Shown: piece by piece, positions 1,793-56,337 of the stretch
Layout of the letters: each line of letters opens with the position of its first letter
Numbering within the stretch: the first letter of the stretch is position 1
Source: a virus
Lineage: Duplodnaviria > Caudoviricetes
IMG/VR virus record: IMGVR_UViG_3300031555_004891
Length of the DNA: 64,000 nucleotides
Reading direction: 5' to 3' (one strand)
Notes under the pieces: generated by a model
Told to the model about the DNA's origin: nothing
Seen by the model: only the letters and a program-made list of their open reading frames with translations
The model's database searches: none
Made by a program: the position numbers and the translations under genes

Positions 1793-2431
1793 ATGCAATT
1801 AACTGATAAACAAAAAGAAGTATTAAATAGATACCTCACAAAAGATGATTGGGTAAAAGCTTTAGATAGCAGAGATTATTCTGAGTTATTAAAATTAACA
1901 GCTACATATCATATAAATCTAGTAGCTTAGATGCTAGAAGAGCTAGAGTCACCAATACCTAGAGATGAGATAAGAAAATTATTTGTTGGCTTTACTGGGG
2001 TACATTTTGAGCCAGAATATGATAATATTGAGTATGCTGATATTTTAGTAGATGATACTAAGAGAAGAATTAAAGTTAAAATTCCTAAAGCAAAGCTAGA
2101 GAAAAATATTGATAAGTTAGTTAGAAGAAATATAATTGCTTATTATTCTTTTGCGTATGAAGATTCTCTAGATTATGTTGAAAATAAATATTTAGATGAT
2201 ATATGCACTGTTGTTAGTTATGTTTATGTAACAATAGGTGGTGATCTAGAATTTCATTTCGATTTAATAGATTCTAATGGTATAACACATGCTACTTTGC
2301 AAGATGAACATCCAGCAGCACCTTTCTTTATTGGTGTAAATGGAATTGGCTACGCTACAAACTTAGATGAAATAGTAAAATATGCGGAAAAGCTTTTTAA
2401 AGATTGTTTAAAAGTACTTTTGGAGGATTAA
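1793..2431 (+). CDS. Hypothetical protein, 212 aa (1 TAG); paralog of 1177..1788
   Basis: ATG 1793, TAG 1928-1930, joins ORF 1931..2431. Similar N- and C-termini to the upstream gene. Confidence 0.8.
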
Positions 2432-2432
2432 T

Positions 2433-4652
2433 ATGGTTGATATAATTAAAGCTGTTAAAGAAAAATTTAATGCTTCTAATTATCCAGTATCAGGACCTAC
2501 ATATATTCTTCCCGATGGATCATTTTTAGATATAGCTGGAACTTTTGATCCTAAAAATAGTTTTGAAGATTTTCCATGTCATGCTGAAGTAGAAGGTTTT
2601 CTTTTAGATATTGGCTTATCTAATCAAGTAGTAGATGTATCAGGTAGCCCTACTTTAGAAAGCTTAGGTGCTATAAGATGTAATGACTTAGCGGATAATA
2701 ATTTTGTTCAATTAAGCAATATAAGACCCACTTCTGATTAGTATGAAAGTTTGGAAAATTGGATATATGAAAATGCTACGCATAGAAGCGAGCTTATAGT
2801 AGCTACACCTGAATTTATTCAATATAAAAAATATGATCCAGAAGATGTTGAGTACATTATCAAAAGAATAAAAAGATACTATACATCAGGTACTTTATAT
2901 GAGAGTAAATGTAGCATATCTTATAAAGATATTTCAGACCTCGATCGCTATAAAAAATCTGCAAATGAGATTCTTGGCGGTTGGGGTAGCCAATCTGATA
3001 ATGGAATATTAGATAATACTAAAGAAATATATGTAGATGATAAATTAGTTGGTTACATAAGTTTCGAAGAATTTGATGATATCGAGGGTTATAATAAAGC
3101 ATTAGGTTTCGGCAACTTTATGATTTTAGATAGAGGTAAAGGTTACGGAACATAGGTTTTAAAAGATTTAATCCAAAGATATAGAGATACTTTTGATCTT
3201 ATTTATTGTTTTGTAAATTCTGATAATTATGATGCTATAAAACTTTATAAAAAATTAGGTAAAGTGTATGATGAAGATGGGCCTAATGATGATAATCAAT
3301 ATTATGTAACTTTTTGGGATAATAAATATATGTCAATTAATGAAAATGTGTCAATAAAAGAAGCTAAAAAGAAAAAGAAGAAGAAAAAAGCTTTAGGCTG
3401 GTGGCAAACTTTTACACCTGATGCTGGTAATGTACTGTTTAATAATGCGTTTTTCAATCATGCAATGGGAAACACAACAACAGATGAGTTTGTTGCAGAG
3501 GCTGGCGAAGCTTTAGCTGGTGATTGTGGCGCTGGTTTAGGTGAGTCCTTACAAAAAGAAACATATTTTAGAGTAGAAGTTTTCCATGATGGTAAACATA
3601 TAGGTGGATTATTTAGAGGCTTAAATGATCTAATAAATGATTTGTACGAAGCAGATGACCCATATTATGATTACTTAAATGATCCATTAAGCGAGTTAGA
3701 ATATAAAACAACATTTCCAAAAAATTTCGATAATAAAGATGCTATCTTCGCATATAAAGAAGATAAGTATGAAGAATTAGAAGAAACAATTTTAGATTTA
3801 CAATACGCATTAAATGAAATTGGTTGGGATATAAAAATTAAAGAAATATCTAGACCAAAAAATATTGTATATGAAGATAATGAGCAGATAGCTTATATTC
3901 TTGAAAATATAGATGAAAAAGATAAGGTAACAGAAAATATGCATAAAGAAGTATTTAGATTTTATGGAAAAGATAAGCAAGGTGATGATATAGAATATAA
4001 AATCGATGGCGTATCTTTTACAGATGCTATTGAGGTATTTATTAGAATGTATCCTGATGTAGAGGATTGGGATGTAGAAACTTTAAAAGAAGATGTTGAT
4101 TTTAATAATGTGCAATGGGGTGTACATCAATTCTCTACTGAGTCTATTATATTTAGAGGCACTCAAGAAGAATGTCAAAGATATATCGATGATAGACCAG
4201 AATTATGGGATGATGCAGAAGTTTATTTTATGACACCAGATGATCCACATTATATTAAATCAGAAGAAAAACAACCTTTGATAGAAGCTGGAGAAGAAAA
4301 AGTCTATCAAGTAATTGTTAAATATAAAGATGAGCCAGCTCAAAAGTTAGAAGCTAGAATCGCAAAAAACAGAAAAGATCTTGAGTATCAATTAAGTACA
4401 GACCCAGACGTAGAATGGTATGATTTTGATGAGAAGCAATTTAACGAAGATAAAGATGAAAAACAAATTTGTTGCATCTGTGGAAAAGAATATGATGGTT
4501 ATGGAAATAATGCTGAACCTGTAAAGGCTGGTAGATGCTGCGATGATTGCAACATTAATCAAGTAATTCCTGCTAGATTATTAAAGATAAATGTTTCTGA
4601 AAATAAGTCAATGACAGAAATTTTCCAAAATCTAAGCAAAATTAAAAAATAA
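2433..4652 (+). CDS. Acidic multi-domain protein, 739 aa (2 TAG), with a GNAT acetyltransferase domain and a C-terminal Cys-rich Zn finger; putative head-cargo polyprotein
   Basis: Three same-frame ORFs joined at TAG 2739 and 3153. GNAT motifs RGKGYGT(Q)VL and N.DAIKLYKKLG. CCICGK...GRCCDDCN near the C-terminus. Confidence 0.8.
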
Positions 4653-4665
4653 CTGAGAGGTTAAC

Positions 4666-6846
4666 ATGAGCGAAAAATATATAGAAAAAGAATTAAACGA
4701 GGCTTGGGATCCTAAAGAAATAGCAAAGCAAGATGCAGAGTTTGCATGGGAAACTGGTCATCCTATGGATCCAGCAGAATGGGAGAATGATGATAAGAAA
4801 AACATCATGACCGAATATGATTTCACAGAAGAGCAAGCAGAAGCATACAAAAATTTCTATTGGGATTATTATTATATCTGTATGGCTGGCGATCCATATA
4901 ACGACGATGATGACTTAGATGAAAACTTAACCGAAACAAAAGCAACAGGCGCTAGAGGTCGTTATCAAGTAGAAGTATTTGATGAAGGGGATTGGCACAA
5001 GTTAAATTGTTGGTCAACAATCGAAAAAGCTACTAAAGCTGGTGAAGCTGCTGTAGAAGCTGTTTATCAAGATTATAGAATCATTGATAAAGAAACTAAT
5101 AACGAAGTTGAGCTCCAAGAGAAATTACATAAACCTACTATAGATACTTTAACAGATGATTTAAGAGAGTTAGCTAAAAAAGCTGATGCTGAGATTACTA
5201 GATCAGGTATCGAATGTATGGTCGCTGCTAAAGATGGTTATGTTATTGCTATCCAAGCAGTTGATCCTACTAAAATGAAACAGGTAGATGAAATTGTAAC
5301 AAAAGTAGCAGAAGACTTTGATTTTGTTCCTGATATTGAAAGAAAAGAAAAACCTAACGGCACTGTACATCTTTATAGATTTAAGAAAGTACAAAAACTC
5401 GCTATTAAAGAGAATGTTATCGAAGAAGAATCTGATGGCGATATCCCTTATACAAAAGAAGAAGTAGAAGCTGAATTAAAACGCGAAACTAATAATTGGG
5501 AAACTAAAGAAGATACTATTAGATATGGCTTCCAAAGTGAAAAAGATTTTGCTATGGAAATACTTTCTCAGCACTACGAATGTGAGTATAAAGGAAAAGA
5601 AGGTAGCGATTATGTTATCCACTTCTGGAAGGAAGATCTAACAGAGACCTTCGATGATGAAGATTATGATGAAGATGAAGATTATGATGATTCCTATTAT
5701 GAAGATTGGTATGAGGTCGGATTTGTTCTTGGTGAGGAAAATGATTCTTATGAATTTTTGTATGAATTCATAGATAGTGCTCCCACAGAAGACAGTGCAA
5801 TAGAAATTGCGAAAAAAGCTAGAGATAGTTCAGATTGGGAAAGTTATTCAGAATATGATATTGTTGTAATCCATGTAGAAGATTTTGGTGATGGCCCTAA
5901 CATATATAATGGAGTGCATCAAGATGCATCCGATGGTGAAGTATATAGAATACCTGGAAAAGAATTGGATGAATCCATCGACACAGCAAGAACTAAAGCA
6001 CAAAAATTAAGAAAGAACTCAGATACAGTGACAGAAGGCGTCTTTAATAGATTATTAGGTAGAAATATTGGCATCTTCAATAAACATAGTGGTGAAGGCC
6101 CAAAATACGCAATACTTGATCCAAAGAAAGAAAACGAGTTTATTGAAAAGATAAAACATATAGATCCAAAGAATTGGGAAGTTTGCGAATACATCGAAAA
6201 GAATGGTAAAGTTATTAAAGGTAACCCTGTAGACAAATATAACAAAATTATGACTGATTATCAAGCTGGCATTAAGAAACAACTTGATGATATAAATGCA
6301 AAGAAAGCTCAACAAGCAAAAGATGCTGAAGAGCAAAGAAAGCAAGAATTAAAGAAACAACCGCACTTCTCAATTGATCCAAAAACAGGTGCAAAGAAAT
6401 ATAGAGATTTGGTTGATGAAGAAGATGCAATAGATGCTCAAATAAATGAAGATGCTGCGGATATAGAAAAACCAAAGTATGAAGTAGGCTCTGAAAAAGT
6501 GTTCGCAGAAGATTCTGAAGAATATGCTCAACTACAAAAAGCAGCAGATAAATTGACTGATTTGAGCGTTAAAAATTATAAATATTTTGTTGGCAACACT
6601 TATTTAGATTTCGGTTCAGGTTGGCAATGGACAACCATTCTCGCTAAAAAGCCTAATGAAGTAGAATTTCAGGTATTAAGTCCATTATCGTGGAGAAATA
6701 TTTTAAATGCTCAATCAGAAGAAGAGCTGGATGCTGCTATCGATCAATTAAGATCTGATGAGTACTTCCATGATAAAATCGAAACACCTAATGCTAGCTC
6801 AAGCGAAAGAGATATTTTCAATTATCTAAACTCAATAGAAGATTAA
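4666..6846 (+). CDS. Acidic multi-domain protein, 726 aa; putative head-cargo polyprotein
   Basis: TAG-free ORF with SD GAGAGG. Short modules separated by LNE/LDE/LTE/LQE/VTE/INE motifs. Confidence 0.8.
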   Translation: MSEKYIEKELNEAWDPKEIAKQDAEFAWETGHPMDPAEWENDDKKNIMTEYDFTEEQAEAYKNFYWDYYYICMAGDPYNDDDDLDENLTETKATGARGRYQVEVFDEGDWHKLNCWSTIEKATKAGEAAVEAVYQDYRIIDKETNNEVELQEKLHKPTIDTLTDDLRELAKKADAEITRSGIECMVAAKDGYVIAIQAVDPTKMKQVDEIVTKVAEDFDFVPDIERKEKPNGTVHLYRFKKVQKLAIKENVIEEESDGDIPYTKEEVEAELKRETNNWETKEDTIRYGFQSEKDFAMEILSQHYECEYKGKEGSDYVIHFWKEDLTETFDDEDYDEDEDYDDSYYEDWYEVGFVLGEENDSYEFLYEFIDSAPTEDSAIEIAKKARDSSDWESYSEYDIVVIHVEDFGDGPNIYNGVHQDASDGEVYRIPGKELDESIDTARTKAQKLRKNSDTVTEGVFNRLLGRNIGIFNKHSGEGPKYAILDPKKENEFIEKIKHIDPKNWEVCEYIEKNGKVIKGNPVDKYNKIMTDYQAGIKKQLDDINAKKAQQAKDAEEQRKQELKKQPHFSIDPKTGAKKYRDLVDEEDAIDAQINEDAADIEKPKYEVGSEKVFAEDSEEYAQLQKAADKLTDLSVKNYKYFVGNTYLDFGSGWQWTTILAKKPNEVEFQVLSPLSWRNILNAQSEEELDAAIDQLRSDEYFHDKIETPNASSSERDIFNYLNSIED

Positions 6847-6888
6847 AACTAAATTTTTATTCTTTACTTAATAATTTTATGCTCTAAG

Positions 6889-6898
6889 GCTAAATTAT
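6889..6898 (+). promoter_or_regulatory. Putative late promoter GCTAAATTAT
   Basis: Exact motif copy in an intergenic gap. Confidence 0.55.
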
Positions 6899-6922
6899 AG
6901 TGTAAAGAAGATTCTCGATAAG

Positions 6923-6955
6923 AAAAGCGTATCTTACTTTACGGATACGCTTTTT
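6923..6955 (+). terminator. Intrinsic terminator-like hairpin
   Basis: AAAAGCGTATC / GATACGCTTTT stem with a T tract. Confidence 0.7.
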
Positions 6956-6975
6956 GCTTTATTATTGGAGTATTT

Positions 6976-9219
6976 ATGAAAGGTATAATAAATGAAGCTC
7001 TTAGCCCTCAAAAGCTTATTACAGGTGACAGATACTTACAGTTTTTTGATGGTAAAGCTGCTAACATATATGCAGATAAAGAAGATAAAATTAAATATGC
7101 TTGCAAATTATTAAACATAAAAAACATATCAGATATTCTAGTGTATTCTGTTGCTGATCCTGCTATGTATTCTCAGATAAGATTATATTTGAGTAAGGTG
7201 CAATCATCAGCAAACTTAGCAACTGTTGTGAAAAAGATTTTTAAGCAAGCAGTATCTATGAAATTTAAGGAAGTGGATTTAAGCAAACAAACAAAGAATG
7301 CTAAAGGAAAAGCTATGCTATGTCCAGCTTTTAATTGTGTTGTTTTTCAAGATATGTTTGCTTTCAAAGATAGAGGATCTTTTACAAAATTTAGTGAATT
7401 TTTAGAAAGTAAATCTGTAAATACATCTACAATAGAAACTGATACAGTTTCTGATACAGCAGATACATCTGTAACTAGAGAAGAACGGGATGATTACGGA
7501 AATTTGAAAAAAGTAATCCACATTGAAAAAACTGATGCTGGAAAATATTACGCTAAAGTTGCATAGATACCTGAAATTTCAAAACAAAGATTCGAATCAC
7601 CAAAAGATGCTGAAAGTTATGCTAGAAAAGTTCTTGATAAGAATGGTTATAAATCTAAAGAATTTGCAGTAGATGGATCTTTTACAGCTGAAAAGAAAAC
7701 AAATAGAAGTGTATCAGTAGATGGATCTGGAAATGTAACAGCATTTAATTTTAGTGTTACAAATGCTGATGGTGAAACTGAAACAATATCAGAAGATCCT
7801 AAAAATCTTGCTTTCATTATTGGTGGTAAGGTTTATGGATATAACAAATATAAAGGTATGAACGCTAAACAGAAGAAGCAAGCTATCATAATTAAGAGAT
7901 CTGGATTAGTTGGCTAGACTATTATAGAAAGTTTGCAAGATTTTGCTGATTTGGAAACCTATTTACCTGACTATATAGATATTATAGAAAATGGTGAGAA
8001 GTATATAATAAATAATAAAGAAACAAACGAAAAAGTTTCTGTTAACATATCTGGTAACGATAATGAAGATTGTCGCGAAATTATTTATTCTCTATATAAA
8101 ATAACTGGAGGAAAATTAGATTTGAAAAACTTTATTGACGAATTAAATGAGTGTGGAAATGAAAAAATTCTTGAAGCTAGTGATTCTAGTATCTCTGAGG
8201 TTAGCTTTATGACTGTACAGGATTTATTATCTGACATGATTGGAAATGTTCCAGAAAAGCAACTAGATGATGAGATGAAAAAATTTAAGAAATTTGCTAG
8301 AATACTGCATGTTAAAGATTTTGGTGATGTTTTAGTTATGGTAGATGAAGGTGAGAGAGATCCTTCTGAATTATTCCCTGATGGTAGATATCACGTAGTA
8401 AATGAAGAAACTGGTGAGCATGAAATCTATTTTGATGAGCAAGGTATCGTCGCAGAATATACAAATGGTTTAATTTACATTTATTTTGCTAGCGAAGATA
8501 TTATGAATAAATTTATTAAAGCATCTGATGAATTTTTAAGATCATTTGAAATCGAAGAAAATCCTTTTGTAGAAGAAATTTTAGAATTCGGTGATGTTAT
8601 GTCTATAGAAGAATGCTTAAACATTTTAGATAAGAATTCTAACAATAAATTTGATCTTCTTAATTGCTATTTAAGTGAGCATTTCACTACTGATGAAAAA
8701 TGCAAAATAGCTGAAATGATTAAAGAAGGTTACTCAAAGGATTCTTTACAAAAATATCTCAAAGAAAAAATTGTAGATAAAGATTTTGTTTTAACCGAAG
8801 ATCAGGATGAAGAAGAAATTTCAGAAGATGATATGACTATCGAACAACTTCTTTTTGCTATGGTAGAAGATCAAGGTCAAGAATACGGCTCAGTATCTAT
8901 ATATGATAAAATGTCTCTAGATAAAGCTGTAGATTGGTTAACAACTCGCGGCTATGATTATGATATACAGCAAATAGAAGAAGATGGTTGGGAGTTATTC
9001 TGGGAAAAGAAACCTGATGCTTCTGAATATGGTTCTTCAAGTGATTCTATAAATAAAACAGTTGCTCAAAATATATTAAAATCTTTAAGAGATGTTCAAG
9101 AAATGCTTCATGATATTATGACTGAATCATCAGCAACAAAATCAGCTGCTGATTATGATCAAGATATTCAAGAAAAGCTTCAAGCAGCTTTAGATGAAGC
9201 TAAGAAATTTGATTATTAA
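6976..9219 (+). CDS. Multi-domain protein, 747 aa (2 TAG); putative head-cargo polyprotein
   Basis: ORFs 6976 and 7933 are in frame, joined through TAG 7564 and 7915. Starts MKGIINEA. Confidence 0.8.
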
Positions 9220-9234
9220 TTGGAGGCTTAGAAA

Positions 9235-10077
9235 ATGTTATTGAATGAAAATCTATTTAAAGAATGGGTTGATGATGGGTTTGATTGGGAACAAGTAGCA
9301 TCTAAACAACTAGAAGATTCAGATGGATTCATGACTGACTACACCTGGTACAAAAGAATTCTTCCTTCAAGTGAAGAACAACATATATTTATCTTCGGTG
9401 ACTCTGACTTATATGGTCCAGATGATTCTCACGCTGATGCCGAATTTGATTCATATAAAGCAGCTGAAGATTGGTTTAATAGCTATAATGGATTCGCAGA
9501 TGATTTAGATGAATCTGTAAATAAGAACGAAAAAAGTCAATATGTTTCTGGAAGATATGTTTATTTTAAATATAAGCAAGTAGAAGGTATGACTGCTGAG
9601 CAATTAGCTAAATCTATAGAAAAAGCTTATAGAGAAAAATTTAGAGATGAGATAAAAGTTACTCACATCGAAAAGCATTCTTATGATTTCTCAAATAAAG
9701 AAATTCCTTATATTGTTTCAGCTGATGGCGTTTATGATGGTGAAGAAAAAATAAGAGGTTTCTGGGCTGTAATTAATTGCAACGAAGAAGAAGGAAAAAA
9801 TCTTCCAGAAGATACTATTATTGAGTGTTTAAAAGAAGGCGCTGTCAAAGATATAGCTCTTGAAATTGAAGAAGCTGGTGGTAAAGATATTTGGCTAGCT
9901 GAAATGAAAAGAAAAATTGAAGATTGCAAAGATATGCTAAAGTATCTCAAAGAAACTGCACCTAGAGAAATTAATAGGGGTGGTGCTTATGATTCTTATG
10001 CAGATATCCAGGAAGCGATAGATGAAATTACTGCAGCTCTTGACGAATTAGAAGCAAAATATTCTATTGCTGCATAA
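9235..10077 (+). CDS. Acidic three-module protein, 280 aa; putative head cargo
   Basis: SD GGAGG. Starts MLLNENLFKE. Internal LDES and LKEG boundaries. Confidence 0.8.
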   Translation: MLLNENLFKEWVDDGFDWEQVASKQLEDSDGFMTDYTWYKRILPSSEEQHIFIFGDSDLYGPDDSHADAEFDSYKAAEDWFNSYNGFADDLDESVNKNEKSQYVSGRYVYFKYKQVEGMTAEQLAKSIEKAYREKFRDEIKVTHIEKHSYDFSNKEIPYIVSADGVYDGEEKIRGFWAVINCNEEEGKNLPEDTIIECLKEGAVKDIALEIEEAGGKDIWLAEMKRKIEDCKDMLKYLKETAPREINRGGAYDSYADIQEAIDEITAALDELEAKYSIAA

Positions 10078-10120
10078 GATATAAAAATTTTTATTTAGTG
10101 TTGTGTTACTTTTTATAACT

Positions 10121-10130
10121 GCTAAATTAT
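10121..10130 (+). promoter_or_regulatory. Putative late promoter GCTAAATTAT
   Basis: Exact motif copy about 50 nt upstream of ATG 10179. Confidence 0.65.
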
Positions 10131-10178
10131 TTAGATACAAAGTAAGTACCTAACAACATTAATGGGAGTGTAAAAATT

Positions 10179-11516
10179 ATGAAATTAAAGAAATATAAAT
10201 CAATGCATGAAGCTGTTGAGGTTAGTGATATTGATTATAGCACTATGGATCATGTCATGGCTGGTGCTTATAGAGAATCTGAAGAACTCAAGAAAAGAGC
10301 AGAAAAAGCTATGGAAGATAGAAAGCTTGAGATGCCTAACGAAGATATAGAAGCTCACAAAGATATTAAATCAGATGACATGAAAAAAATGCATTTATGC
10401 GAATCTTTCTTTGAAGAATTTATTTCCGATGAAGACCTTACAGAAGCTACAATAACTGAAGCTGCTTATACAGATGAGCATATACAATACATAGAAGATT
10501 CTTATAAAGCTGTTTGTAAATATTATACATCTGTAGAAGCTGTAGTAGACGCTTTTAGATCAGAAGCTGAGCTTATGGATGCTTCAGAAGTTATTGATGA
10601 TATTGCTATAACTCTTCGCGAAAAAATAGAATCAGTTTCAGAAAGTAAAAAAGAAGATTCTGAAGGTGAGCTTTTAACTGAGTATAAAAGACAGGAAGGA
10701 TCTAAATTAGTTTATAAACAAAAGAGAGATTCTTTAGCAGAAATTATTCAAGTAGAATTAACAGAAGGCGAATGGGGTTATGTAGAAAACCCCGATGGTT
10801 CAACATCACCTACCCGATTACCTTCTGCTAACTATTTAGATGACAAAATTGGCGTAGTCTTTGGAAGAGATGATTCTTGCTCAATTAGAATTTGGGCTAA
10901 AGATGAAGAAGCATTACAACCAGCTGTAGACATTGCTAAAAAATATGGAAAAGATTATAAAGTTGGTTCTGATAAATATGTTCAATCAGAAGATAAATTC
11001 TATTGCGATATCTTTTTGACAGAAGAAGATTGGGAAGGTCATTATTTTGATCCAAATGTTCCAGTAGCTAAGTCTGAAAAGCCTTCAAAGAAAAAAGTAG
11101 AAGAGCTTGAAGAAGATATTAAGGAAGATAATACAGATATCGAGACTAAAGAGGAATGTATCCATCCCAGCGAAGAAATTGAGGAATCTATCGAAGATGT
11201 CGAAAAGGAAATTCTTACAGAAGCTAGAATTTCAACAGAAGGCCTAAGAAATTTCAGACCCTGGGATGGTGCAGTAAATACTTATCAAAGAATAGTAGAA
11301 GCTAAGAAATTAGATACTTTAGAATTTATGCTTGAAGATATGTATCCAAACGGGGTTGGTGCTAATGAGTTAAATGACATGCTTCAATTCGAATCTGATT
11401 GGATTTTAGAATCTTTAGGTTTAATTGAAAAAACTGATGATTCTGATGATGATATTTATGAAACAGTAATTGGCCCAGATGGTAATCCAATGAAAAAGCT
11501 TAAAGAAACAATTTAA
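10179..11516 (+). CDS. Acidic multi-domain protein, 445 aa; putative head cargo
   Basis: SD GGGAG. Many LTE/ITE/IEE motifs flanking compact modules. Confidence 0.8.
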   Translation: MKLKKYKSMHEAVEVSDIDYSTMDHVMAGAYRESEELKKRAEKAMEDRKLEMPNEDIEAHKDIKSDDMKKMHLCESFFEEFISDEDLTEATITEAAYTDEHIQYIEDSYKAVCKYYTSVEAVVDAFRSEAELMDASEVIDDIAITLREKIESVSESKKEDSEGELLTEYKRQEGSKLVYKQKRDSLAEIIQVELTEGEWGYVENPDGSTSPTRLPSANYLDDKIGVVFGRDDSCSIRIWAKDEEALQPAVDIAKKYGKDYKVGSDKYVQSEDKFYCDIFLTEEDWEGHYFDPNVPVAKSEKPSKKKVEELEEDIKEDNTDIETKEECIHPSEEIEESIEDVEKEILTEARISTEGLRNFRPWDGAVNTYQRIVEAKKLDTLEFMLEDMYPNGVGANELNDMLQFESDWILESLGLIEKTDDSDDDIYETVIGPDGNPMKKLKETI

Positions 11517-11527
11517 GCTGGAGGTAC

Positions 11528-12256
11528 ATGATGGGATATTTAGATAGAAAAGCTAGAATAAAATTCTATGAAGAATTAAAAAAAGCTGGTAAAACAAAAA
11601 TACAGCTTCAAGAAAATTTATTGAAAGAAGAAGCTGAAACTGTTCCAGTAGTTGTAGTAACTTCAGAAGAAGTTGCGCCTTGCTCTATTCCAGTAATGGA
11701 TGAGTGCCCAGTTGTGGTGGAACCAAATAAAGAAAACGATCCAGGTGAACCAAAATCTGTTCCAACAGAAGATATAGGAATAGCTGACATGCTCATATAG
11801 GCTATTACTGATGAGTATGCTACAATTGCTCAATATAATTCTTTAGTAGCTATTTTAAATGACACAGGATATTCAGAGTTAGCAGCTGTTGTAAGTCATA
11901 TAAACGAAGAAGAGCAAATCCATGTTGGTATGTTACAACATGCTATGGAAGAAGTTTCAAAGCAAGCTAAAAAAGTTGAAGATGGTAAGCAAGAAGCTGA
12001 GCAAATAATTTCAGGCGAACCTATTGTAGAAGAACCTGTTGTAATAGAAGTTGCGCCAAAGGTTGCTGAGCAACCTTTAGAAGAAGCAGTAAAAGAAGAT
12101 AAAATAGAAGAAGCTCAAGCTTTAGTTGATGCAGCTATTAAATGCTTTGGAAGAATTGGCGGTGGCTTATATGATGACTTAGATGAAATGGGTCTATATG
12201 TAGCAGAAGAAGATGGAAATTATATTGTAAAAAAGAAAGTTCCAGACGCTGAATAA
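11528..12256 (+). CDS. 242-aa protein (1 TAG) containing a ferritin-like di-iron helical pair
   Basis: ORFs 11528 and 11930 are in frame via TAG 11798. The revealed segment reads LI(Q)AITDEYATIAQY...INEEEQIHVGMLQ (E..., Y, ExxH). Confidence 0.75.
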
Positions 12257-12274
12257 GTCTTCGGGAGGTTTTAT

Positions 12275-12676
12275 ATGAAAATTTTATTAGTGGAAGATTT
12301 TTCAGAAGAATTTGATTTTTCAGAAGAATTAGAATACTACGCAGATGATGTTGTAGATGACGAAGATTCTGGAAAAGTTTCTGGATCAGTTTATGTACAG
12401 ATAGATTCAGACGAAGTTTTAACATTCTTTTGGGAACATGCTGACATAGATATAGATAAACATCCAGAATTAGAAGATGATTTAAACTGGAAAAAATATG
12501 TAAAAGAAAATTACGAAGAGCTTTGGGAAAATCTAGGTGAAGCTTTATAGGATTATTATAAAGATAGAGCTAGAGATAAAGTCTATGATAATTGGGATAA
12601 TTATGCTATAGAAGACGAATCACCCTATGATGACCGAGCAGAGCTTCTGAGAGATTATTACAGAAACGTATTATAA
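12275..12676 (+). CDS. Acidic hypothetical protein, 133 aa (1 TAG)
   Basis: SD GGGAGG. Reads through TAG 12548 to TAA 12674-12676. Confidence 0.75.
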
Positions 12677-12680
12677 AAAT

Positions 12681-12718
12681 AATAGGTCGCCATGAGGTAA
12701 TTCTTAAGGCGACCTATT
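12681..12718 (+). terminator. Hairpin closing the acidic-protein block
   Basis: AATAGGTCGCC / GGCGACCTATT inverted repeat; weak U tract. Confidence 0.6.
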
Positions 12719-12760
12719 CGAATAAATTAAAAATAATCTAGAATGATACATAAAATAATT

Positions 12761-12770
12761 GCTAAATTAT
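12761..12770 (+). promoter_or_regulatory. Putative late promoter GCTAAATTAT
   Basis: Exact copy ahead of fibre cassette A, within AAATAATT-GCTA-AATTATTT dyad symmetry. Confidence 0.65.
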
Positions 12771-12806
12771 TTGTGAAAAGCAATTCTGGATTTTTATGAG
12801 GTGACT

Positions 12807-13232: not shown

Positions 13233-13245
13233 GGAGAAAAGGTTA

Positions 13246-47776: not shown

Positions 47777-49318
47777 ATGTCAGCACCCTTAAAGAGAAAC
47801 GAAGAGTTAGTTTTAGATGACTCAATAAAAGTTAATAAGAAAGGCGAAGCTATCCTCGGTGTTCTCGAAGGACCCTGCGCAGATGTAATAAATCCTACGA
47901 GAAATGATAGACAGTATGATGAAGAGCTTTGGGAAAATGTTTTCAAAGATCCTATCGTAAACGAATACTTCGAATGCGGCGGTTTATTAGGTGAGTTAGA
48001 TCACCCAACAGATCGTACAGAAACTGATACATCTAAAGTAGCAATTTGCATGCCTGAAAAACCTAAAAGAGGAAAAGATGGTAAACTTTATGCAAGATTT
48101 GATATTTTAGATACACCAAATGGACGTATTGCTTATACACTTGCAAAATATGGATATAAGTTAGGTGTAAGCTCAAGAGGTAATGGTGATGTCTACGAAG
48201 CTTTTGATGGAAAAGAGCATGTAGACTCAAATACATATGAGCTCAAAGCATTCGATTTAGTTTTATTACCAGCAGTTAAAGCTGCTAGACTTGCTTTAAA
48301 AGAATCTGTAGGTAATAAAACATTTAAGCAAGCAATCAGAGAATCTTTAGAATCTGCTACAAAAGATGAAAAAAGAATTATGGTTGAAAGCTTAAGAAAC
48401 TTAAAAATAGATTATAAGATGGAACAGGCTAAACAGTCTGTAAAATCAGATAATAAAGTAACCGAATCAGTAGTTCCTCAAACTGAGAAAGTAGCCGAAG
48501 ATAACGGAATGATTTTAGTAGAAGAATTACAGAGAGAAATTCTCAAGAATAAAGAATTAACTGAATCATATCAAGCTGTGCAAGAACAGTTATCAGTTTG
48601 CTATGCAAAAGAAGCTAAGTATCAAGAAGAAATTGAAATGCTTAAAGCAAATCAAATCAGCACTGATAAAGATAAAGTTACTGCTTTAGAATCAGAGATT
48701 AGCTCCCTTACTGAGAGATTACATGAAACAACCGAACAGCTTAACGCAACTAGTAAGCGTTACGCAAAACTTTCTGAAGCAGTAAGAAAAGAAAAAGCTG
48801 AAAAGAAAGCTATAAATGAGTCTTTAGAATCTGAAAAAGATCATAAGATACAGAAGCTTACAGAAAAGCTAACACTTGAAAGACGCGAATCAGAAAAAAC
48901 TCAGAAAAGTTTAACCGAATAGATAGAAGACTTAAAGAAGAATTCTGCTATTAAAGCTAAAGAATATTCTGAAAAAACTCAAAAATCTAACAAGCTTGTG
49001 GAACATTATAAAAAGATAGCTCAAGAAGCTGTTTCTAGATATATAGATTCAAAAGCACTTACGTTAGGTATTTCAGCTACAGAAATTAAAAACAGACTCA
49101 CAGAAGATTGTACTTTCGATGATGTAGATGAAATTTGCGAGAGTTTGCAAGGATATCAGATAAAGCTTAGCAAACTTCCTATTTCTATCGACTCAAATAA
49201 AAGAGTGAAAGTTAAAGTTACTGAATCAAAAGAACCCATTAAGCCTAAAACATGGGTTGATGACGAAATAGATGACAGTTTATTACGTCTAGCAGGCTTA
49301 GACAAATTAGATTTATGA
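47777..49318 (+). CDS. Prohead protease (T4 gp21-like) fused to a coiled-coil scaffold, 513 aa (1 TAG)
   Basis: TRNDRQY, GELDHP, GVSSRGNG, FDLVLLPA. Coiled coil rich in LxE. C-terminal LLRLAGL. TAG 48920. Confidence 0.9.
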
Positions 49319-49337: not shown

Positions 49338-50675
49338 ATGGCTAACTTACTTGAAAGTTATAAAACCAGACTTGCAGTGTCTGAAAGCTATTATGCAAAA
49401 TCACACAACGGCGAAAAACTTCCTCAACAAAAGAAACTCGTTGTTGCAAAATTACTTGAAAACCAAAACAAATTCTTAAGCGAAGCGTTTGAACAAAGCG
49501 TTGGTACTCAAAGAAGCGACATGGGTCATTTCAGAAAATTCTCTATGAACCTTACTACTGTTGCTACTCCTAACCTTATTGCTTTCGACCTCGTTCTCGT
49601 ACAACCTATGAGCTCACTCAGCGGTTATGTTAACTACATTAAATATACTGTTGGTTCAAACAAAGGTGATTCAAAGAGAGGCGAAGTACTTAACAGTCCT
49701 TTCGGTCTTGGTAAAGTTGATCCTTACTACACTTCCGATAAAGTTGTTGAAACTATTGGTGCTGGTGTAACTGAATTCAAAGCAGCTTGGACCCCTGTAT
49801 TAAAAGGTTTCTTCAGACATGATGATGCTAAATATGATGTTAAAATCATGAAAGCAGATGGTTCTGAACAATATGCAAACTTTAATGATGATGGTGTTGT
49901 AGCTGTTGCAGAAGGTGATAGAGTTGCATATGTATATGATAACGTTTCTATTCCTCAAAACGACCTTCCTGTTGTAAACGCTGAAATGGATACTATTCCT
50001 CTTGTTGCAAGAGCTAGAAGAATTGCTATCTACTACAGCCAAATGGCTGCTTTCCAAGCTAAAACTGATTATGGTTTCGACCTTGGCGATCAACTTGCTG
50101 AAAAAGCTGTTGCTCAATTAAGTTACGAAATTGATACTGAAGTTTGCCAACTTCTTATCGACAATGCAGATGCAGATGACGCAGTTGTATTCAATAAAAC
50201 AGTACCTTATGGTATCTCTATGATGGAACACTACGCAGCATTCGCAGCAGTTGTTGAAAAAGCAAAACAAAAAGTATATGACAGAACTAAGAGATTTATG
50301 CCTAACTACATGTTAGTTGCTTCTGACCTTATGCCTGTACTTACTTTCGTTCCTGGATTCAAAGCTGCTTCTGCAAGCAATGTAAACGGTCCTTACATGG
50401 CTGGTACATTCAATGGTATGAAAGTATTCGTTACTCCAAACATTGAAGCTGGTAAATTCGTACTCGGTGTAAATGGTAACGATATGATGAGCTCTGCAGC
50501 TGTTTATGCTCCTTACATGCCAGTAGTTCCTACTCAATTGCTTAACTATGCTGACGGTGGTATGAGCCAAGGCTGGTCAACTATGTATGACCTCAAGATC
50601 CTCAACAAAAACCTTCTTGTTGCTGGTAAAATCGTTGAAGAAGCTTACGTAGTTAACACTAAAGAACAAGCTTAA
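49338..50675 (+). CDS. Major capsid protein (T4 gp23-like), 445 aa
   Basis: LLENQ, PNLIAFDLVLVQPM, VARARRI, LSYEIDTEV, AVYAPYMP. TAG-free. Confidence 0.95.
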   Translation: MANLLESYKTRLAVSESYYAKSHNGEKLPQQKKLVVAKLLENQNKFLSEAFEQSVGTQRSDMGHFRKFSMNLTTVATPNLIAFDLVLVQPMSSLSGYVNYIKYTVGSNKGDSKRGEVLNSPFGLGKVDPYYTSDKVVETIGAGVTEFKAAWTPVLKGFFRHDDAKYDVKIMKADGSEQYANFNDDGVVAVAEGDRVAYVYDNVSIPQNDLPVVNAEMDTIPLVARARRIAIYYSQMAAFQAKTDYGFDLGDQLAEKAVAQLSYEIDTEVCQLLIDNADADDAVVFNKTVPYGISMMEHYAAFAAVVEKAKQKVYDRTKRFMPNYMLVASDLMPVLTFVPGFKAASASNVNGPYMAGTFNGMKVFVTPNIEAGKFVLGVNGNDMMSSAAVYAPYMPVVPTQLLNYADGGMSQGWSTMYDLKILNKNLLVAGKIVEEAYVVNTKEQA

Positions 50676-52165: not shown

Positions 52166-53908
52166 ATGGCTACAAATTATTTAGCAGAAGCCTTTCAGCA
52201 AATGAAGTTATTAGAAAGTGAAACTTTCAGCTTCGATAACGATGGGGCTGCAAAACTATCAAACTTCATGGATGATGACCTTCTCACAGATGTAGAAGTT
52301 GTTATTGATCCTGAAGCAGAAACAGAAGAAGATCTTAAAGACTCATACATCGGTGATATTATCTTAGCATGCGAAGTATGTCATTCTATGATCTACAAAC
52401 GTGAAGAAGAAGTAACAGTTGAAGAAGATGCTGATATGGCAAATGTTGGCGAACTTTGTCCTTATTGCTACTCTTCTGATGGTTTCAAAATTATCGGTAA
52501 GGTAGCACCTTATGAAGAAATTACTGTTGAAACAGAATCTGGTGAAGATGTAAAAGTTGAAGTAGATGGTAAGAAAATTGAAACCGAAGCTGATGATGAA
52601 GATGAAATAAAAGATCTTGATCCAGAAACAGAAGAAGATAGAGAAGAGCTTGATGAGTCTTTAAATGAAGCTAAAGATAGCAAAGAAAAAGGTACTGGTG
52701 ATGATGTTACTATTGGCTTAAATAAAGATGGCGAACTTGATATTGTAAAAGATGAAAATCAAGATAATATCGAACCTTTAGAAGAAGCTAAAGAGCCACT
52801 TTCTGTTAGACTTAAGAAAAGACTCGCTATGAAAGCTGAAAATCTCGAAGAAGAAGTTATTGAAGAAAATTTCTACGCAGTAGTAGAAGTAGATGGTGAA
52901 GAAAGAAGATTCCCATTTAAAGATAGAGATGCAGCTAGAAGATATATCCAACACGTTAGAAATGGTGCACCTGAATTTGAAGGTAAGAAAATCGGCAGCA
53001 TGTGGACTGAAAGTTTAGATTCAAACAATAGATTGCTGAAAGAAGGTAGAGGTAAAAATAAATTCACTTATGATGAAGCAGTAAATTATTTAGAATCAAA
53101 AGGAATTAGCTGTGATCCAACAGCTGCTGGATGCGGTGAATTTGTATGCGATCTTCTAGATGAGTATGTTGATGGTTACGATGATTATGATGAAGAAATT
53201 TATTATAAATCTACGTTAGATGATATAATTGATAGAGCTAAAGATTATTTAGAAAATCTTGAAGAAGAAGATCTTGATGAGTCTGTTGCTAAAAACAGTT
53301 CAAAACAAAATTTGAAAGAAGGTATGGAAGATATTTCTATTACTACAGAAACAGATGTAATTAAAGTAAAATCTACACCTAGAGAAGATAAAGAAGCTAT
53401 TGTTCCTATGCAACCAGAAGAAGTAGAAGAAATTGTCGAACCTGCTGCAGAAGAAGTAGCAGAAATTCCAGAAGAAGAATTTGTTGAAGAACCTGCAGTT
53501 GATGAAGAAACAGTTGATACTGATGTAGATATCGAAGAATTCGATGAAGAAGGCTTTGATGAGTTAGGTGAAAGCTACCTTAAGAAAGTATATGAAAATG
53601 TAGAATCATATAAAACAACTTCTGGTAGTTTAAAAAATAATTCTATCTGTTTAGAAGGTGTTATTACATTTAATTCTGGTAAAAAAGCTAAAACTAGTTT
53701 TATTTTCGAAGCTAAAGAAATGACTAAACGTGGTAAGCTTAAATTCATTGGTGAAAATGTTAACTTATCTAAAAATAAGAAAGCATTTACCCTTACTGGA
53801 ATTGCTGACAATAAAAAATTAATGTGCGAATCTTTAACTTATAATTATTTAGCTAAAGACGCTAAAAACAATAAAGCTAAAAAACTTTATGGAACAGTTA
53901 AAAGATAA
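52166..53908 (+). CDS. Acidic head/core-like multi-domain protein, 580 aa, with CxxC pairs
   Basis: TAG-free. CEVC and CPYC. Many LxE(S/A/G) motifs. Confidence 0.75.
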   Translation: MATNYLAEAFQQMKLLESETFSFDNDGAAKLSNFMDDDLLTDVEVVIDPEAETEEDLKDSYIGDIILACEVCHSMIYKREEEVTVEEDADMANVGELCPYCYSSDGFKIIGKVAPYEEITVETESGEDVKVEVDGKKIETEADDEDEIKDLDPETEEDREELDESLNEAKDSKEKGTGDDVTIGLNKDGELDIVKDENQDNIEPLEEAKEPLSVRLKKRLAMKAENLEEEVIEENFYAVVEVDGEERRFPFKDRDAARRYIQHVRNGAPEFEGKKIGSMWTESLDSNNRLLKEGRGKNKFTYDEAVNYLESKGISCDPTAAGCGEFVCDLLDEYVDGYDDYDEEIYYKSTLDDIIDRAKDYLENLEEEDLDESVAKNSSKQNLKEGMEDISITTETDVIKVKSTPREDKEAIVPMQPEEVEEIVEPAAEEVAEIPEEEFVEEPAVDEETVDTDVDIEEFDEEGFDELGESYLKKVYENVESYKTTSGSLKNNSICLEGVITFNSGKKAKTSFIFEAKEMTKRGKLKFIGENVNLSKNKKAFTLTGIADNKKLMCESLTYNYLAKDAKNNKAKKLYGTVKR

Positions 53909-53989: not shown

Positions 53990-54826
53990 GTGAGCTTTTT
54001 AACTGAAGATAAAAGAAACTAGCTGCTGAGTAAAAGTAAGCAGAGTAAAAGACAAAAAGATGGTAAAACACGTTATCAAAAGCGTGTTAAATCAAAAGTA
54101 AAAGCTAATGTAAGCAACTTAAATAAAGTCAATTTTAACTAGTTATTCAAAGATAATATAATGACTGTTAATTTAGATGTTTAGGGTGAAACAAATGAGT
54201 ATGTAGTTACTATTTCATTTGGTGGTTTTTTAGATGAGTTACATAGCGAATTAAAGAAAGCAAATGACATTTTAGCACTGAGAGTTGTAATAAGATCCTT
54301 GCTTAACTCTTTTAATGGTGAAAATGTTTATATAAGATGCTCATGCCCCGATTTTCAATATAGAGGCGCGTATTGGGCTAGTAAAAATAATATCATAGTA
54401 GGTGAGAGAGAAAATAGACCTTCTGATATTACAAATCCAAATGATGATGTTGGACCTGGTTGCAAACATATAATGTTAGTGCTTTCAAATACGAGCTGGA
54501 TGATAAAGCTTGCTAGTGTTGTTTATAATTATATAAACTATATGGAAAAACATTATAAAAAGCTTTATGCTGATATTATTTATCCAGCAATTTATGATAG
54601 AAAATATGAAGAACCTGTTCAGCTTGATCTTGATACTATTGATCAAACAGATCTTGATACAGATTCTGAAACTATAGATAAATCCAACGCAGAAGCTCGA
54701 GATAGAGGTAAGTTTAAAGTTGGTAATAAGATGGGTGTACGATTTGCACCTAAAGAAGATAATAAGCAAATAAATCTGAGTCTGAGAGATATCGAGGATA
54801 CAGATGATGAAGAGGACGAAGAATAA
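53990..54826 (+). CDS. SWIM-type zinc-finger protein, 278 aa (3 TAG)
   Basis: GTG after SD GGAGG. CSCPDF...GCKHI. Confidence 0.75.
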
Positions 54827-56337
54827 TGGATTTCAAAAACATTATGTCAAAAAGCTTTAATAAACAAACTAACACTTTATCTGAAGCTGAAATAGATGCT
54901 AGACTTATAGAATCAGCTGGAAAAATATCAGATATTAAAAATCAAATTCAAGAGCTTAATACTACCTGGAAAGCTTTAAAAGAAGATAAAGATGGATTAG
55001 CTTTCGGAAACAGTCTTACTGCAAACAGTTTAAGAGAAGAATTTCAAGAAAAAGCTGAGGTACTCAAGAAGCAATTTAACGAAGCAAGAAATGAGTATTT
55101 AGAATATAAAAATCTTAAGAATAAACTATTAACTGAAGCTGAGATTAAATTATCACCAGAAGATATGTTTGATCCAGATAAGCCAGTTAAATTTACAGAT
55201 ATTGCTAAACGCGCTGATGATGAAGAAAAAGCAGAAATAGCTAGAAAAGCAGAAGAAGAAAGAAAAGCTGCTGCTAGAGAAAAATTGCATGATATTCTTG
55301 ATCCAGTAGAAAAAGCTATTGCTGCAGATGATGATCCAGATGATATTTTACAGATATTATTTGACGAGTTAGTACCACCTTCTGGTCCTGCTGAAACTGT
55401 TGCTGGTGAAATTGTAAGAGCTATTATGAGATTAGTTTATCGCGATTATAATGATGGTGATAAATTCTATGAAGGCTATGGTTTAGAAACGTGTGCAGCA
55501 CCAGCAGCTTATTTAGCAAATCACGGTTTTGCAGATGACTTAGAAAAAATTCTAGAAGATGCTGCAAATTTCGAAATGGATGATGATACTTACACAGAAG
55601 CTATAAAAGATCTAGAAGAAAGAATTATTCATGAAATTATTCAAGATGTAGATTTGTTTATAGATAAAAACGAAGAAGATTGTTTAGATCAAGATATTGA
55701 TTGGATTATAGAAGGTCAACCTAAACATACTTATGAAATTCCATGCTCTGATGATCTTACACCATTTATCGAAGCTGGATATTGCGATAGTTGGAAGCTA
55801 AAAGAATACGTTGAGAATCAATTAAGTTGGGAAGCATCTACTAGAGATGCTGAAATAGAAAGACCATGGAGTCATAACGATACTTCTGTAACTATTACAA
55901 ACTTAACTAAAGATGGGTTAGATAGAGTAGAAGAATTAGCTAAACATCATTTAGAAAGTTTCTGGGAAGATTTAGTTTCAGAGCTTAAAGAAGAGCATCC
56001 AACTCACGATTGTGATGATTGTGGTAATACTTTCTTCGAAGATGATATGGAAGAAATTGATGGTCAATGGATATGTCAAGATTGCGCAGATAGCAGAGAT
56101 TATTCTGATAGCGATGATGAAGAAGATCTTGATGAAGCTTTTACTAAACCTAGCACTTTATTGAGAATATTTAAGAGTTATTGTGATGGCGCGAATGAGC
56201 AACGCAATCCAGAAGCTTTTAGTAGAATGAGATATCTACTCAATACTTATGGTGATAATGACGAAGAAGCTTTTGAAAATGCTCCAGAAGATATTTAGAT
56301 GAGAGCTTTAGAGCTTATTGCACCACGTAGAGCTTAA
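54826..56337 (+). CDS. Acidic multi-domain protein, 503 aa (1 TAG); putative head cargo
   Basis: Coiled coil with LSE/LIE/LTE, an LVPPSGPAETVAGEIVRA module and a CDDC...CQDC finger. TAA 56335. Confidence 0.75.

What the first reader, a model, noticed from the sequence alone, without database searches (positions are those of the whole stretch)
2433..12676. Candidate head-packaged polyproteins: effector-like modules separated by prohead-protease sites
Seen: the block 2433-12676, plus 52166 and 54826, encodes proteins built of unrelated 50-120 aa modules (GNAT, Zn fingers, ferritin-like, several Trp/Tyr-rich units). Their linkers carry (L/I/V)xE followed by S/A/D/G/N/T. Examples: 4666 has LNE-A, LDE-NLTE-T, LQE-K, IKE-N, LTE-T, LDE-S, VTE-G, INE-D; 52166 has LDE-SLNE-A, LKE-G, LDE-S; 9235 has LNE-N, LDE-S, LKE-G. 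The same motif saturates the phage's own scaffold (LKES, IRES, VTES, LTES, INES) and occurs at the MCP N-terminus (LLES, LSEA). Established: T4 gp21 cleaves after (L/I)xE in head proteins, and T4 internal proteins are injected with the DNA. Inference: these late genes are cassettes that load many small host-takeover or anti-defence proteins into the head, cut them apart during maturation and deliver them before phage transcription starts. Caveat: acidic proteins contain LxE by chance.
Basis: partly seen in the sequence, partly recalled or inferred. Interest (0 to 1): 0.88.

Follow-up and report, generated by a model that had tools for sequence, protein, structure and literature searches.

The report
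Phage cargo polyproteins with protease-site linkers
An uncultured gut phage that reads the stop codon TAG as glutamine strings small, swappable protein modules into long acidic proteins whose joints match the cutting rule of its own T4-type head protease. They are therefore probably loaded into the capsid and cut apart, but neither cutting nor packaging has been measured.

Summary
With TAG read as Gln, 2433-12676 encodes seven very acidic proteins (133-747 aa) built of small modules, including a GNAT and a rubrerythrin-like unit. [LIV]xE followed by a small residue occurs 63 times against 27 expected from shuffles (z 7.7). That matches the enrichment in the protease-scaffold and capsid precursor (z 6.1). 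Fibre, tail and replication proteins show none, and [LIV]xD shows none.

In an AlphaFold model of the 4666 protein, all six inter-domain linkers carry a site (11 observed, 4.4 expected). Relatives shuffle, gain and lose the same modules, and homology breakpoints lie near the motif 1.5-1.85 times more often than expected, while controls stay near 1.0. Some modules exist elsewhere as stand-alone 70-100 aa phage genes. Seven of ten candidate proteins also have a site within 20 residues of the N-terminus, as T4 capsid-targeting peptides do. Block operons share a promoter-like motif with the terminase and protease genes.

Most predicted fragments are acidic, unlike the basic internal proteins of T4. 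I rate this a new variant of a known kind (T4 internal proteins, polyvalent proteins). This scan has noted similar polyproteins in at least six other uncultured T4-like phages, and I found no paper describing them.

The parts
2433..4652 (+). 739-aa acidic modular protein (2 in-frame TAG=Gln). It has an N-terminal module, a GNAT (aa 199-276, about nt 3027-3260), a lysine run, a module resembling module B of the 4666 protein that starts right after LGE|S, and a C-terminal CxxC zinc-ribbon-like unit.
   Evidence: In the 92-96% identical relative L046 the stretch holding the GNAT core (aa 159-288) is absent, and the left breakpoint lies 1 residue from LYE|S.
4666..6846 (+). 726-aa protein of about seven modules, here called A to F. 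Linkers lie at aa 76-95, 151-161, 244-261, 324-360, 388-463 and 567-615, and each holds at least one [LIV]xE. The N-terminus carries LNE|A at aa 10-12.
   Evidence: AF2 model, linker statistics, mosaic homologs P0002-P0010, and 286 representative hits mostly to module F.
6976..9219 (+). 747-aa modular protein (2 TAG). It has a basic N-terminal part (aa 8-273, pI 8.8) after INE|A at aa 5-7, then acidic modules with 23 or more [LIV]xE.
   Evidence: It is preceded by the promoter-like motif at 6889.
9235..10077 (+). 280-aa acidic protein with LNE|N at aa 3-5 and internal LDE|S and LKE|G.
   Evidence: (z 3.55).
10179..11516 (+). 445-aa acidic protein with 13 [LIV]xE[SAGNTD] sites. Module aa 349-417 (about nt 11223-11429) is flanked by LTE|A and LIE|K and is co-linear with stand-alone 72-80 aa phage proteins.
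   Evidence: z 4.45; phrog_5149, 8e-11.
11528..12256 (+). 242-aa protein (1 TAG) with a rubrerythrin/ferritin-like unit at aa 87-186.
   Evidence: 24.6 bits, cutoff 22.8.
12275..12676 (+). 133-aa protein (1 TAG) with 31.6% Asp+Glu and LVE|D at aa 5-7.
52166..53908 (+). 580-aa acidic protein between the head-tail adaptor-like gene and the tail genes. It has a conserved N-terminal L-x-E|A-F, a zinc ribbon, a variable middle with inserted modules, a conserved L-x-E|S-Y-L site, and then a basic C-terminal domain (pI 9-10).
   Evidence: ([LI]xE[SAG] z 5.7).
54826..56337 (+). 503-aa acidic protein with LSE|A at aa 18-20 and a C-terminal CxxC unit. It is poorly conserved.
47777..49318 (+). Prohead protease (S77/gp21 family, aa 1 to about 230) fused to a coiled-coil scaffold-like C-terminal part that is rich in [LIV]xE|S. 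It is one 513-aa ORF with one TAG.
   Evidence: It aligns to T4 gp21 structure 5JBL, and the query has His and Ser at the aligned active-site blocks.
49338..50675 (+). gp23-type major capsid protein. The propeptide has sites at aa 6, 16 and 41, plus the conserved Φ-x-E|A/S-F site at about aa 48-50 (nt 49479-49487), just before the Pfam Gp23 domain.
   Evidence: The site is kept in all 31 relatives aligned.
6889..6898 (+). Promoter-like motif GCTAAATTAT. Further exact copies lie at 1139, 10121, 12761, 40921, 42931 (before the terminase gene) and 47724 (before the protease gene).
   Evidence: Seven of eight + strand exact copies in the 102.8-kb record are intergenic, 38-101 nt before a start codon, although 96% of the record is coding.

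Best explanation
The block, and probably 52166 and 54826, encodes precursor polyproteins that are substrates of the phage's gp21-type prohead protease.

Proposed sequence of events:
1. The genes are transcribed with the head genes.
2. The proteins enter the prohead core through short N-terminal peptides that end in Φ-x-E, or through affinity for the scaffold.
3. The activated protease cuts after Glu in the exposed Φ-x-E linkers and releases 35-270 aa modules (mostly 35-150). These include the GNAT, the ferritin-like unit, zinc ribbons and many modules of unknown fold.
4. At least some fragments stay in the head and enter the host with the DNA. There they act before phage genes are expressed, in host take-over or counter-defence.

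Shown here: the modular build, the motif enrichment and its position in linkers, the module turnover, the protease family, and the shared promoter-like motif.
Inferred: targeting, cleavage, retention, ejection and the function of the modules.
For: 1. Enrichment is specific to the candidates and to the known substrate classes, and it requires Glu: block ratio 2.31 (z 7.65), protease-scaffold plus MCP 3.25 (z 6.1), fibres 1.15, [LIV]xD control 0.92.
2. All six AF2 linkers of the 4666 protein hold a site (11 against 4.4 expected, p 0.0013), and the domains are depleted.
3. Among 91 mosaic proteins, homology breakpoints lie within 3 residues of [LIV]xE at 1.52 times expectation and of [LI]xE[SAG] at 1.85 times. 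Any-E, [LIV]xD, [LIV]E and non-hydrophobic-xE give 0.97-1.10.
4. The same module keeps Φ-x-E in front of it in different contexts while P2 varies, for example VTE|G, LKE|G, LEE|G and LDE|G before module E. The 52166 family keeps L-x-E|A-F and L-x-E before its basic domain in 7 of 7 orthologs. The capsid keeps Φ-x-E|A/S-F in 31 of 31 relatives.
5. Seven of ten candidates, counting the MCP as a positive control, have an N-terminal site within 20 residues. Composition predicts 1.4, and the rest of the proteome has 8 of 82 (Fisher p 7e-5).
6. The protease belongs to the gp21 family. gp21-type enzymes cut after Glu in a short motif, and T4 targets its internal proteins with 10-residue N-terminal peptides (PMC9026906, PMC5694885).
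7. Modules are swapped between phages that are 92-96% identical. This fits an arms-race cargo better than an essential scaffold.
8. Stand-alone homologs lie in arrays of small genes. One is next to a gene annotated as a putative anti-CRISPR endonuclease in a Listeria Pecentumvirus.
9. The block shares the promoter-like motif with the terminase and protease operons.
10. 61 multi-domain homologs from public data show a pooled ratio of 1.77 for the motif.
Against: - There are no protein data of any kind, because the phage is uncultured.
- Most predicted fragments are acidic (pI 4.1-5), whereas T4 IPI-III are basic.
- General [LIV]xE is mildly enriched everywhere (1.2-1.4), and the reverse pattern is also somewhat enriched in the block (1.59). 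Helix periodicity therefore contributes.
- Three of seven block proteins lack an N-terminal site.
- Some breakpoints between the window and L046 are 12-16 residues from a site.
- The promoter-like motif also precedes non-head genes.
- The cutting rule of this clade's protease is inferred from conservation, not measured.
- Parts of the AF2 'linkers' (aa 388-463) may be poorly modelled domains.
- The breakpoint counts are not independent events.
Confidence: 0.5

Rival explanations
1. These are cytoplasmic multi-domain (polyvalent-like) proteins that are never packaged or cut. In this reading the Φ-x-E-small joints are a shared linker style inherited with the modules, or are favoured as recombination joints, and their likeness to the protease rule is coincidental.
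For: - Recurrent junction peptides in homologs, such as the repeated E-S-V-L-M-E joint in P0006-P0008, look inherited.
- Breakpoints cluster at linkers, as expected of any domain shuffling.
- There is no direct evidence of packaging.
- The fragments are acidic.
- The reverse motif is mildly enriched.
Against: - Within this phage the joints share no long nucleotide repeats, so the pattern is at the protein level.
- P3 and P1 are kept while P2 and the flanks vary.
- Glu is required and Asp is not enriched.
- The same bias occurs in the scaffold and capsid propeptide, which are unrelated in sequence.
- N-terminal sites are in excess.
- The tandem paralog array of equally acidic proteins next door shows only a 1.39 ratio.
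Confidence: 0.25
2. They are accessory prohead-core or scaffold-like proteins. They enter the prohead and are cut at the many sites, but the pieces are expelled before DNA packaging, so nothing is delivered to the host.
For: - Very acidic, multi-site proteins resemble T4 gp22 and the long multi-cut propeptides of SPN3US head proteins, whose fragments leave the head (PMC9026906, PMC10052503).
- The 52166 family looks like a long acidic pro-region in front of a conserved basic domain.
Against: - Enzyme and metal-binding modules (GNAT, rubrerythrin-like, zinc ribbons) and independently folding modules that are also solo genes in other phages are not expected of disposable scaffold.
- Content differs between 92-96% identical phages, which is unlike core assembly proteins.
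- The 4666 protein has no homolog in five related large contigs.
Confidence: 0.15
3. The motif pattern is a chance by-product of Glu- and Leu-rich composition.
For: The proteins are 19-32% Asp+Glu, and the 4666 protein as a whole is not enriched.
Against: Composition-preserving shuffles give z 7.65 for the block. Compartment-preserving shuffles give p 0.0013 for the linkers. Control motifs are flat.
Confidence: 0.03

Closest known systems
Phage T4 internal proteins IPI, IPII, IPIII and Alt (capsid targeting sequence plus gp21 processing; PMC9026906)
   Same: Both have a gp21-family protease, cutting after Glu in a short hydrophobic-x-Glu motif, and short N-terminal peptides ending in that motif. 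The cargo genes are variable between relatives. Alt is an injected enzyme, as the GNAT might be.
   Different: Here several unrelated modules sit in one ORF and would be separated by internal sites. T4 has one protein per gene with one N-terminal cut (Alt also has a C-terminal one). The products here are mostly acidic rather than basic. There is no sequence similarity to T4 IPs or Alt. Nothing has been shown experimentally.
Polyvalent proteins of phages and conjugative elements (Iyer et al. 2017, PMC5512222)
   Same: Both are long phage proteins made of 2-15 unrelated domains, GNATs included. Both are predicted to travel with the DNA and act early, and both accrete domains from solo genes.
   Different: The hallmark domains (zincin-like MPTase, ART, MuF, ParB-like, LPD families) give no Pfam hit here. 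There is no embedded peptidase, so release would be in trans by the prohead protease at standard linkers. There are several consecutive genes rather than one giant protein.
Ejection and inner-body proteins of phiKZ, 201phi2-1 and SPN3US, processed by gp175 or gp245 (PMC10052503, PMC5694885)
   Same: In both, a diverged gp21-type protease cuts after Glu at a three-residue motif with Ser favoured at P1'. Both have long pro-regions with several sites, and many head proteins are delivered to the host.
   Different: The motif there is A/S/G-x-E, not L/I/V-x-E. There the cuts remove N-terminal pro-regions from one mature protein and do not separate independent modules. There is no homology, and no PF12699-type hit in the Pfam scans.
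Similar 'cargo polyproteins' noted by this scan in other uncultured T4-like or jumbo phages (e1-5364636, e1-5364647, e1-5380179, e1-5390323, e1-5521388, e1-5365718)
   Same: In all of them, shuffled small modules are joined by linkers that look like sites of the phage's own head protease, and none has protein data.
   Different: Those phages use one near-invariant linker peptide, whereas this one uses degenerate Φ-x-E-small joints. This host environment is the gut, the code is TAG=Gln, and the head genes are closest to those of Firmicutes phages. Those notes are unchecked AI reports and are not evidence.

Membership tests
T4-type CTS-targeted, gp21-processed internal head proteins | The phage encodes a gp21-family (Peptidase S77) prohead protease | tested here: met
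   PF03420 scores 43.6 bits (cutoff 27) on 47777-49318. It aligns to T4 gp21 structure 5JBL at E 6e-5, with His and Ser in the query at the two conserved blocks. That these are T4 residues 85 and 140 is my recollection.
T4-type CTS-targeted, gp21-processed internal head proteins | A short N-terminal propeptide ending in the protease motif | tested here: inconclusive
   The motif is present within 20 residues in 4 of 7 block proteins, in 52166 and 54826, and in the MCP (7 of 10 against 1.4 expected). The targeting function cannot be tested.
T4-type CTS-targeted, gp21-processed internal head proteins | Presence in prohead and virion, and cleavage by the protease | not testable with these tools
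   The phage is uncultured and no proteome exists. No homologs were found in cultured phages for 4666 or 52166.
T4-type CTS-targeted, gp21-processed internal head proteins | Ejection into the host with the DNA | not testable with these tools
   No data.
T4-type CTS-targeted, gp21-processed internal head proteins | Sequence homology to IPI, IPII, IPIII or Alt | tested here: not met
   No Pfam or PHROG hit of that kind.
Polyvalent proteins (Iyer et al. 2017) | Several unrelated domains in one phage-encoded polypeptide | tested here: met
   AF2 domains and mosaic homologs, plus a GNAT with other modules in 2433-4652.
Polyvalent proteins (Iyer et al. 2017) | Hallmark domains (MPTase, ART, MuF, DarB-like helicase or methylase, LPD families) | tested here: not met
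   Only the GNAT was found, with no other Pfam hit in the block or in 40 multi-domain homologs.
Polyvalent proteins (Iyer et al. 2017) | An embedded peptidase for self-processing | tested here: not met
   No peptidase family hit in any block protein.
GNAT acetyltransferase (module in 2433-4652) | Pfam Acetyltransf_1 above the gathering score | tested here: met
   35.5 bits against 20.7, at aa 199-276, only with TAG=Gln. Catalytic competence and substrate were not tested.
Rubrerythrin/ferritin-like (module in 11528-12256) | Pfam Rubrerythrin above the gathering score | tested here: met
   24.6 bits against 22.8, which is marginal, at aa 87-186. The metal ligands were not checked.

The most novel reading that the evidence does not exclude
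Trans-cleaved cargo polyproteins may be a general, undescribed strategy of T4-type phages. In this reading, exchangeable libraries of small counter-defence or take-over proteins are encoded as beads on a string, loaded into the prohead, cut apart at standard prohead-protease joints and delivered ready-made with the DNA. This gut phage would be a degenerate-linker example. Its modules, many of which are also solo early genes in other phages, would be a catalogue of candidate anti-defence proteins.
Probability: 0.4. Interest if true: 0.8.

Novelty: new variant of a known kind. Interest (0 to 1): 0.66.

Why it matters
If true, one late gene delivers several finished proteins into the cell before any phage gene is read. 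The linker rule would then let such cargo be recognised from sequence alone in uncultured phages. That would yield a large, pre-sorted set of candidate host-take-over and counter-defence modules, including the widespread 100-aa module F family, which has a confident but unmatched fold. It would also explain how module content can change between near-identical phages. In addition, it suggests a natural design for loading several foreign proteins into T4-like capsids.

Tried and rejected
- Table-11 ORF calls split the genes and hid the GNAT. I dropped them once TAG=Gln was shown.
- My first tally of residues opposite TAG was off by one and looked inconsistent with Gln. It was corrected.
- Megablast and tblastn of the block, 4666 and 52166 against cultured phages gave no match. 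A pattern scan of viral contigs with 4666 found nothing, and five related large contigs hold no homolog.
- Module F has no Pfam family, no PDB sequence match, and no Foldseek PDB match at E 0.001 or better. It has one unnamed BFVD protein match. The atlas gave only hypothetical proteins and one weak DUF3846/DUF5688 structural lead.
- The first fragment alignment for AF2 (A3) was badly scattered and I did not use it.
- CTGTATAA as a promoter motif is not enriched overall. GCTAAATTAT is the informative motif.
- Nucleotide repeats at the joints were looked for and not found.
- No tRNA gene lies in the window, and I did not search for the suppressor tRNA elsewhere.
- I did not use complex prediction, because enzyme-substrate pairs are a poor use of it.

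Full report
**What the window is.** All long ORFs lie on the + strand and G+C is about 32%. The head genes are T4-type. They comprise a portal (PF07230), a prohead protease of family S77 (PF03420) and a gp23-type major capsid protein (PF07068). The nearest cultured capsids are those of Listeria, Bacillus and Streptococcus myoviruses, at about 29-33% identity. Forty-five related metagenomic viral contigs were found. The record held is 102,762 bases, but the identical 726-aa protein also occurs on a contig of 262 kb. The record may therefore be a fragment of a larger genome.

**Genetic code.** With TAG=Gln many split ORFs fuse. The portal becomes 638 aa, the terminase gene carries 14 TAGs, and protease and scaffold form one 513-aa ORF. 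Pfam GNAT and rubrerythrin domains appear only across a TAG. TAG positions in conserved genes align mainly to Q (100), E (67) and K (48) in relatives, and sometimes to TAG itself. A first tally was off by one residue and should be ignored.

**The observation.**
- The quoted motif examples are all present.
- Against residue shuffles, [LIV]xE followed by S/A/G/N/T/D occurs 63 times in the seven block proteins, with 27.3 expected (z 7.65).
- It occurs 21 times against 11.3 expected in 52166+54826, and 21 times against 6.5 expected in protease-scaffold plus capsid.
- Seventeen fibre and tail proteins give a ratio of 1.15. Twenty-two equally acidic tandem paralogs just upstream give 1.39, and replication proteins give 1.18.
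- The same pattern with Asp in place of Glu is flat (0.92), as are [LIV]E and [LIV]xxE.
- Plain [LIV]xE is mildly enriched everywhere (1.2-1.4), and the reversed pattern is somewhat enriched in the block (1.59). Helix periodicity therefore adds a background that cannot explain the rest.

**Position of the sites.**
- An AlphaFold model of the 4666 protein, built with an alignment of homologous fragments, shows confident small domains separated by six low-confidence stretches.
- Each stretch holds at least one [LIV]xE. Eleven sites fall in linkers against 4.4 expected when linker and domain residues are shuffled separately (p 0.0013). The domains hold 7 against 11.2.
- The sites inside domains mostly have bulky residues after the Glu.
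- One caveat is that aa 388-463 may be a poorly modelled domain.

**Modules are real and mobile.**
- Homologs of the 4666 protein share single modules at high identity, in a different order and in different company.
- A relative that is 92-96% identical in DNA (L046) lacks module B and the GNAT core, and it replaces aa 333-603 by about 830 other residues.
- A search of 1.8 billion representatives found 286 hits. Most match module F (aa about 605-710). Module F occurs dozens of times as a stand-alone protein of 94-107 aa and also inside proteins of up to 1392 aa. Modules B and D recur likewise.
- Module F folds confidently (pLDDT 93.5), but it has no Pfam family and no PDB match by sequence or by fold.
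- The module at aa 349-417 of the 10179 protein begins right after LTE|A and ends at LIE|K. It is co-linear with 72-80 aa solo genes.
- One of these solo genes lies in the left-end small-gene array of a Listeria Pecentumvirus, next to a gene annotated as a putative anti-CRISPR endonuclease.
- Solo module F genes sit in arrays of small unidirectional ORFans.

**Junctions.**
- Among 91 mosaic proteins, internal ends of local alignments lie within 3 residues of [LIV]xE 1.52 times as often as expected. With a small P1' the ratio is 1.74, and for [LI]xE[SAG] it is 1.85.
- Any-Glu, [LIV]xD, [LIV]E and non-hydrophobic-x-E give 0.97-1.10. These breakpoints are not independent events, so the ratios matter more than the p-values.
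- The same module keeps a hydrophobic-x-Glu in front of it in different contexts while the middle residue changes.
- In the 52166 family the N-terminal L-x-E|A-F and the L-x-E before the basic C-terminal domain are kept in 7 of 7 orthologs, with a free P2. Inserted middle modules are each preceded by x-x-E|S.
- The capsid protein keeps Φ-x-E|A/S-F at about residue 50 in all 31 relatives aligned, just before the Pfam Gp23 domain. This is the best estimate of this clade's maturation site.
- The joints share no long nucleotide repeats within the phage.
- Sixty-one multi-domain homologs from public data show a pooled ratio of 1.77 for the motif, and A/G/S-x-E is flat in most.

**Targeting-like N-termini and timing.**
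- Seven of ten candidates (four block proteins, 52166, 54826 and the capsid protein) have a site within 20 residues of the start. Composition predicts 1.4, and the remaining proteins have 8 of 82.
- The group was chosen after the fact, so this is suggestive only.
- A motif, GCTAAATTAT, occurs eight times on the + strand of the record. Seven copies lie 38-101 nt before start codons in the 4% of DNA that is non-coding.
- Those copies precede 1177, 6976, 10179, 12801, 41022, the terminase gene and the protease gene. None lies in the replication region.
- The block is thus probably co-regulated with head genes, although the motif is not limited to them.

**Mechanism and its weak points.**
- gp21-type proteases cut after Glu in a short motif.
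- T4 targets its internal proteins with 10-residue N-terminal peptides that gp21 removes, and an Asp at the cut position blocks processing.
- T4 internal proteins vary between relatives, in keeping with an arms race (PMC9026906, PMC5694885).
- SPN3US shows multi-site pro-regions and a Ser preference after the Glu (PMC10052503).
- Polyvalent proteins, GNATs included, were predicted to travel in capsids (PMC5512222).
- The simplest reading is that these are polyprotein substrates of the prohead protease.
- The steps from cutting to delivery are inferred.
- Most predicted fragments are acidic, so expulsion with scaffold debris is a live alternative.
- A purely cytoplasmic role with inherited linker style cannot be excluded either.

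**Novelty.** I found no paper describing prohead-protease-cut cargo polyproteins. This scan has noted look-alikes in at least six other uncultured T4-like phages. Those notes are unchecked and do not count as support, but they suggest a class. I rate this a new variant of a known kind.

Noticed in passing
whole window, e.g. 42975-45059, 45073-46989, 21138-28328: TAG is read as an amino acid, most likely Gln. The terminase gene has 14 in-frame TAGs, the portal 2, and a 2396-aa fibre protein 5. Relatives such as L001 also carry in-frame TAG. No tRNA gene lies in the window.
   Followed up: yes
1139, 6889, 10121, 12761, 40921, 42931, 47724 (+ strand): The promoter-like motif GCTAAATTAT lies 38-101 nt before start codons of the block operons, a membrane-protein cassette, the terminase gene and the protease gene. 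It is absent from the replication region of the record.
   Followed up: partly
window 1177-2431 and upstream in the record (G000 about 2677-18317): A tandem array of about 22 paralogous acidic proteins of 137-335 aa (mostly about 200-230) shares an N-terminal pattern. The distant relative L047 has a similar array of small genes, one with BspA-type LRR_5 hits. Function is unknown, and the motif enrichment is only 1.39.
   Followed up: partly
47777-49318: The prohead protease and a coiled-coil scaffold-like region form a single 513-aa ORF when the one TAG is read through. Relatives align across that position.
   Followed up: partly
P0001 aa 605-726 (window about 6478-6846): Module F belongs to a large family of about 100-aa stand-alone proteins. 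It has no Pfam model and no PDB sequence or fold match. The model is confident and alpha/beta, with nearly invariant Y, D, G, W-T-T-I, Q and P positions. This is a candidate new domain family.
   Followed up: partly
52166-53908 and orthologs in L001, L002, L031, L041, L043, L045: This is a conserved-position gene with a fixed N-terminal peptide, a zinc ribbon and a basic C-terminal domain of about 115 aa. The middle part differs in every relative, and L002 has a tandem duplicated module.
   Followed up: partly
21050, 37614, 42788, 50736, 62016 (+ strand): All five + strand copies of CTGTATAA lie in intergenic regions of the structural gene cluster, although the motif is not enriched overall. 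It may be a second regulatory signal or part of terminators.
   Followed up: no
record G000: The record is 102.8 kb, but the identical 726-aa protein is on 14 contigs of up to 262 kb, and a 72%-identical-capsid relative is a 233-kb contig rated complete. The phage may be a jumbo phage and the record a fragment.
   Followed up: no
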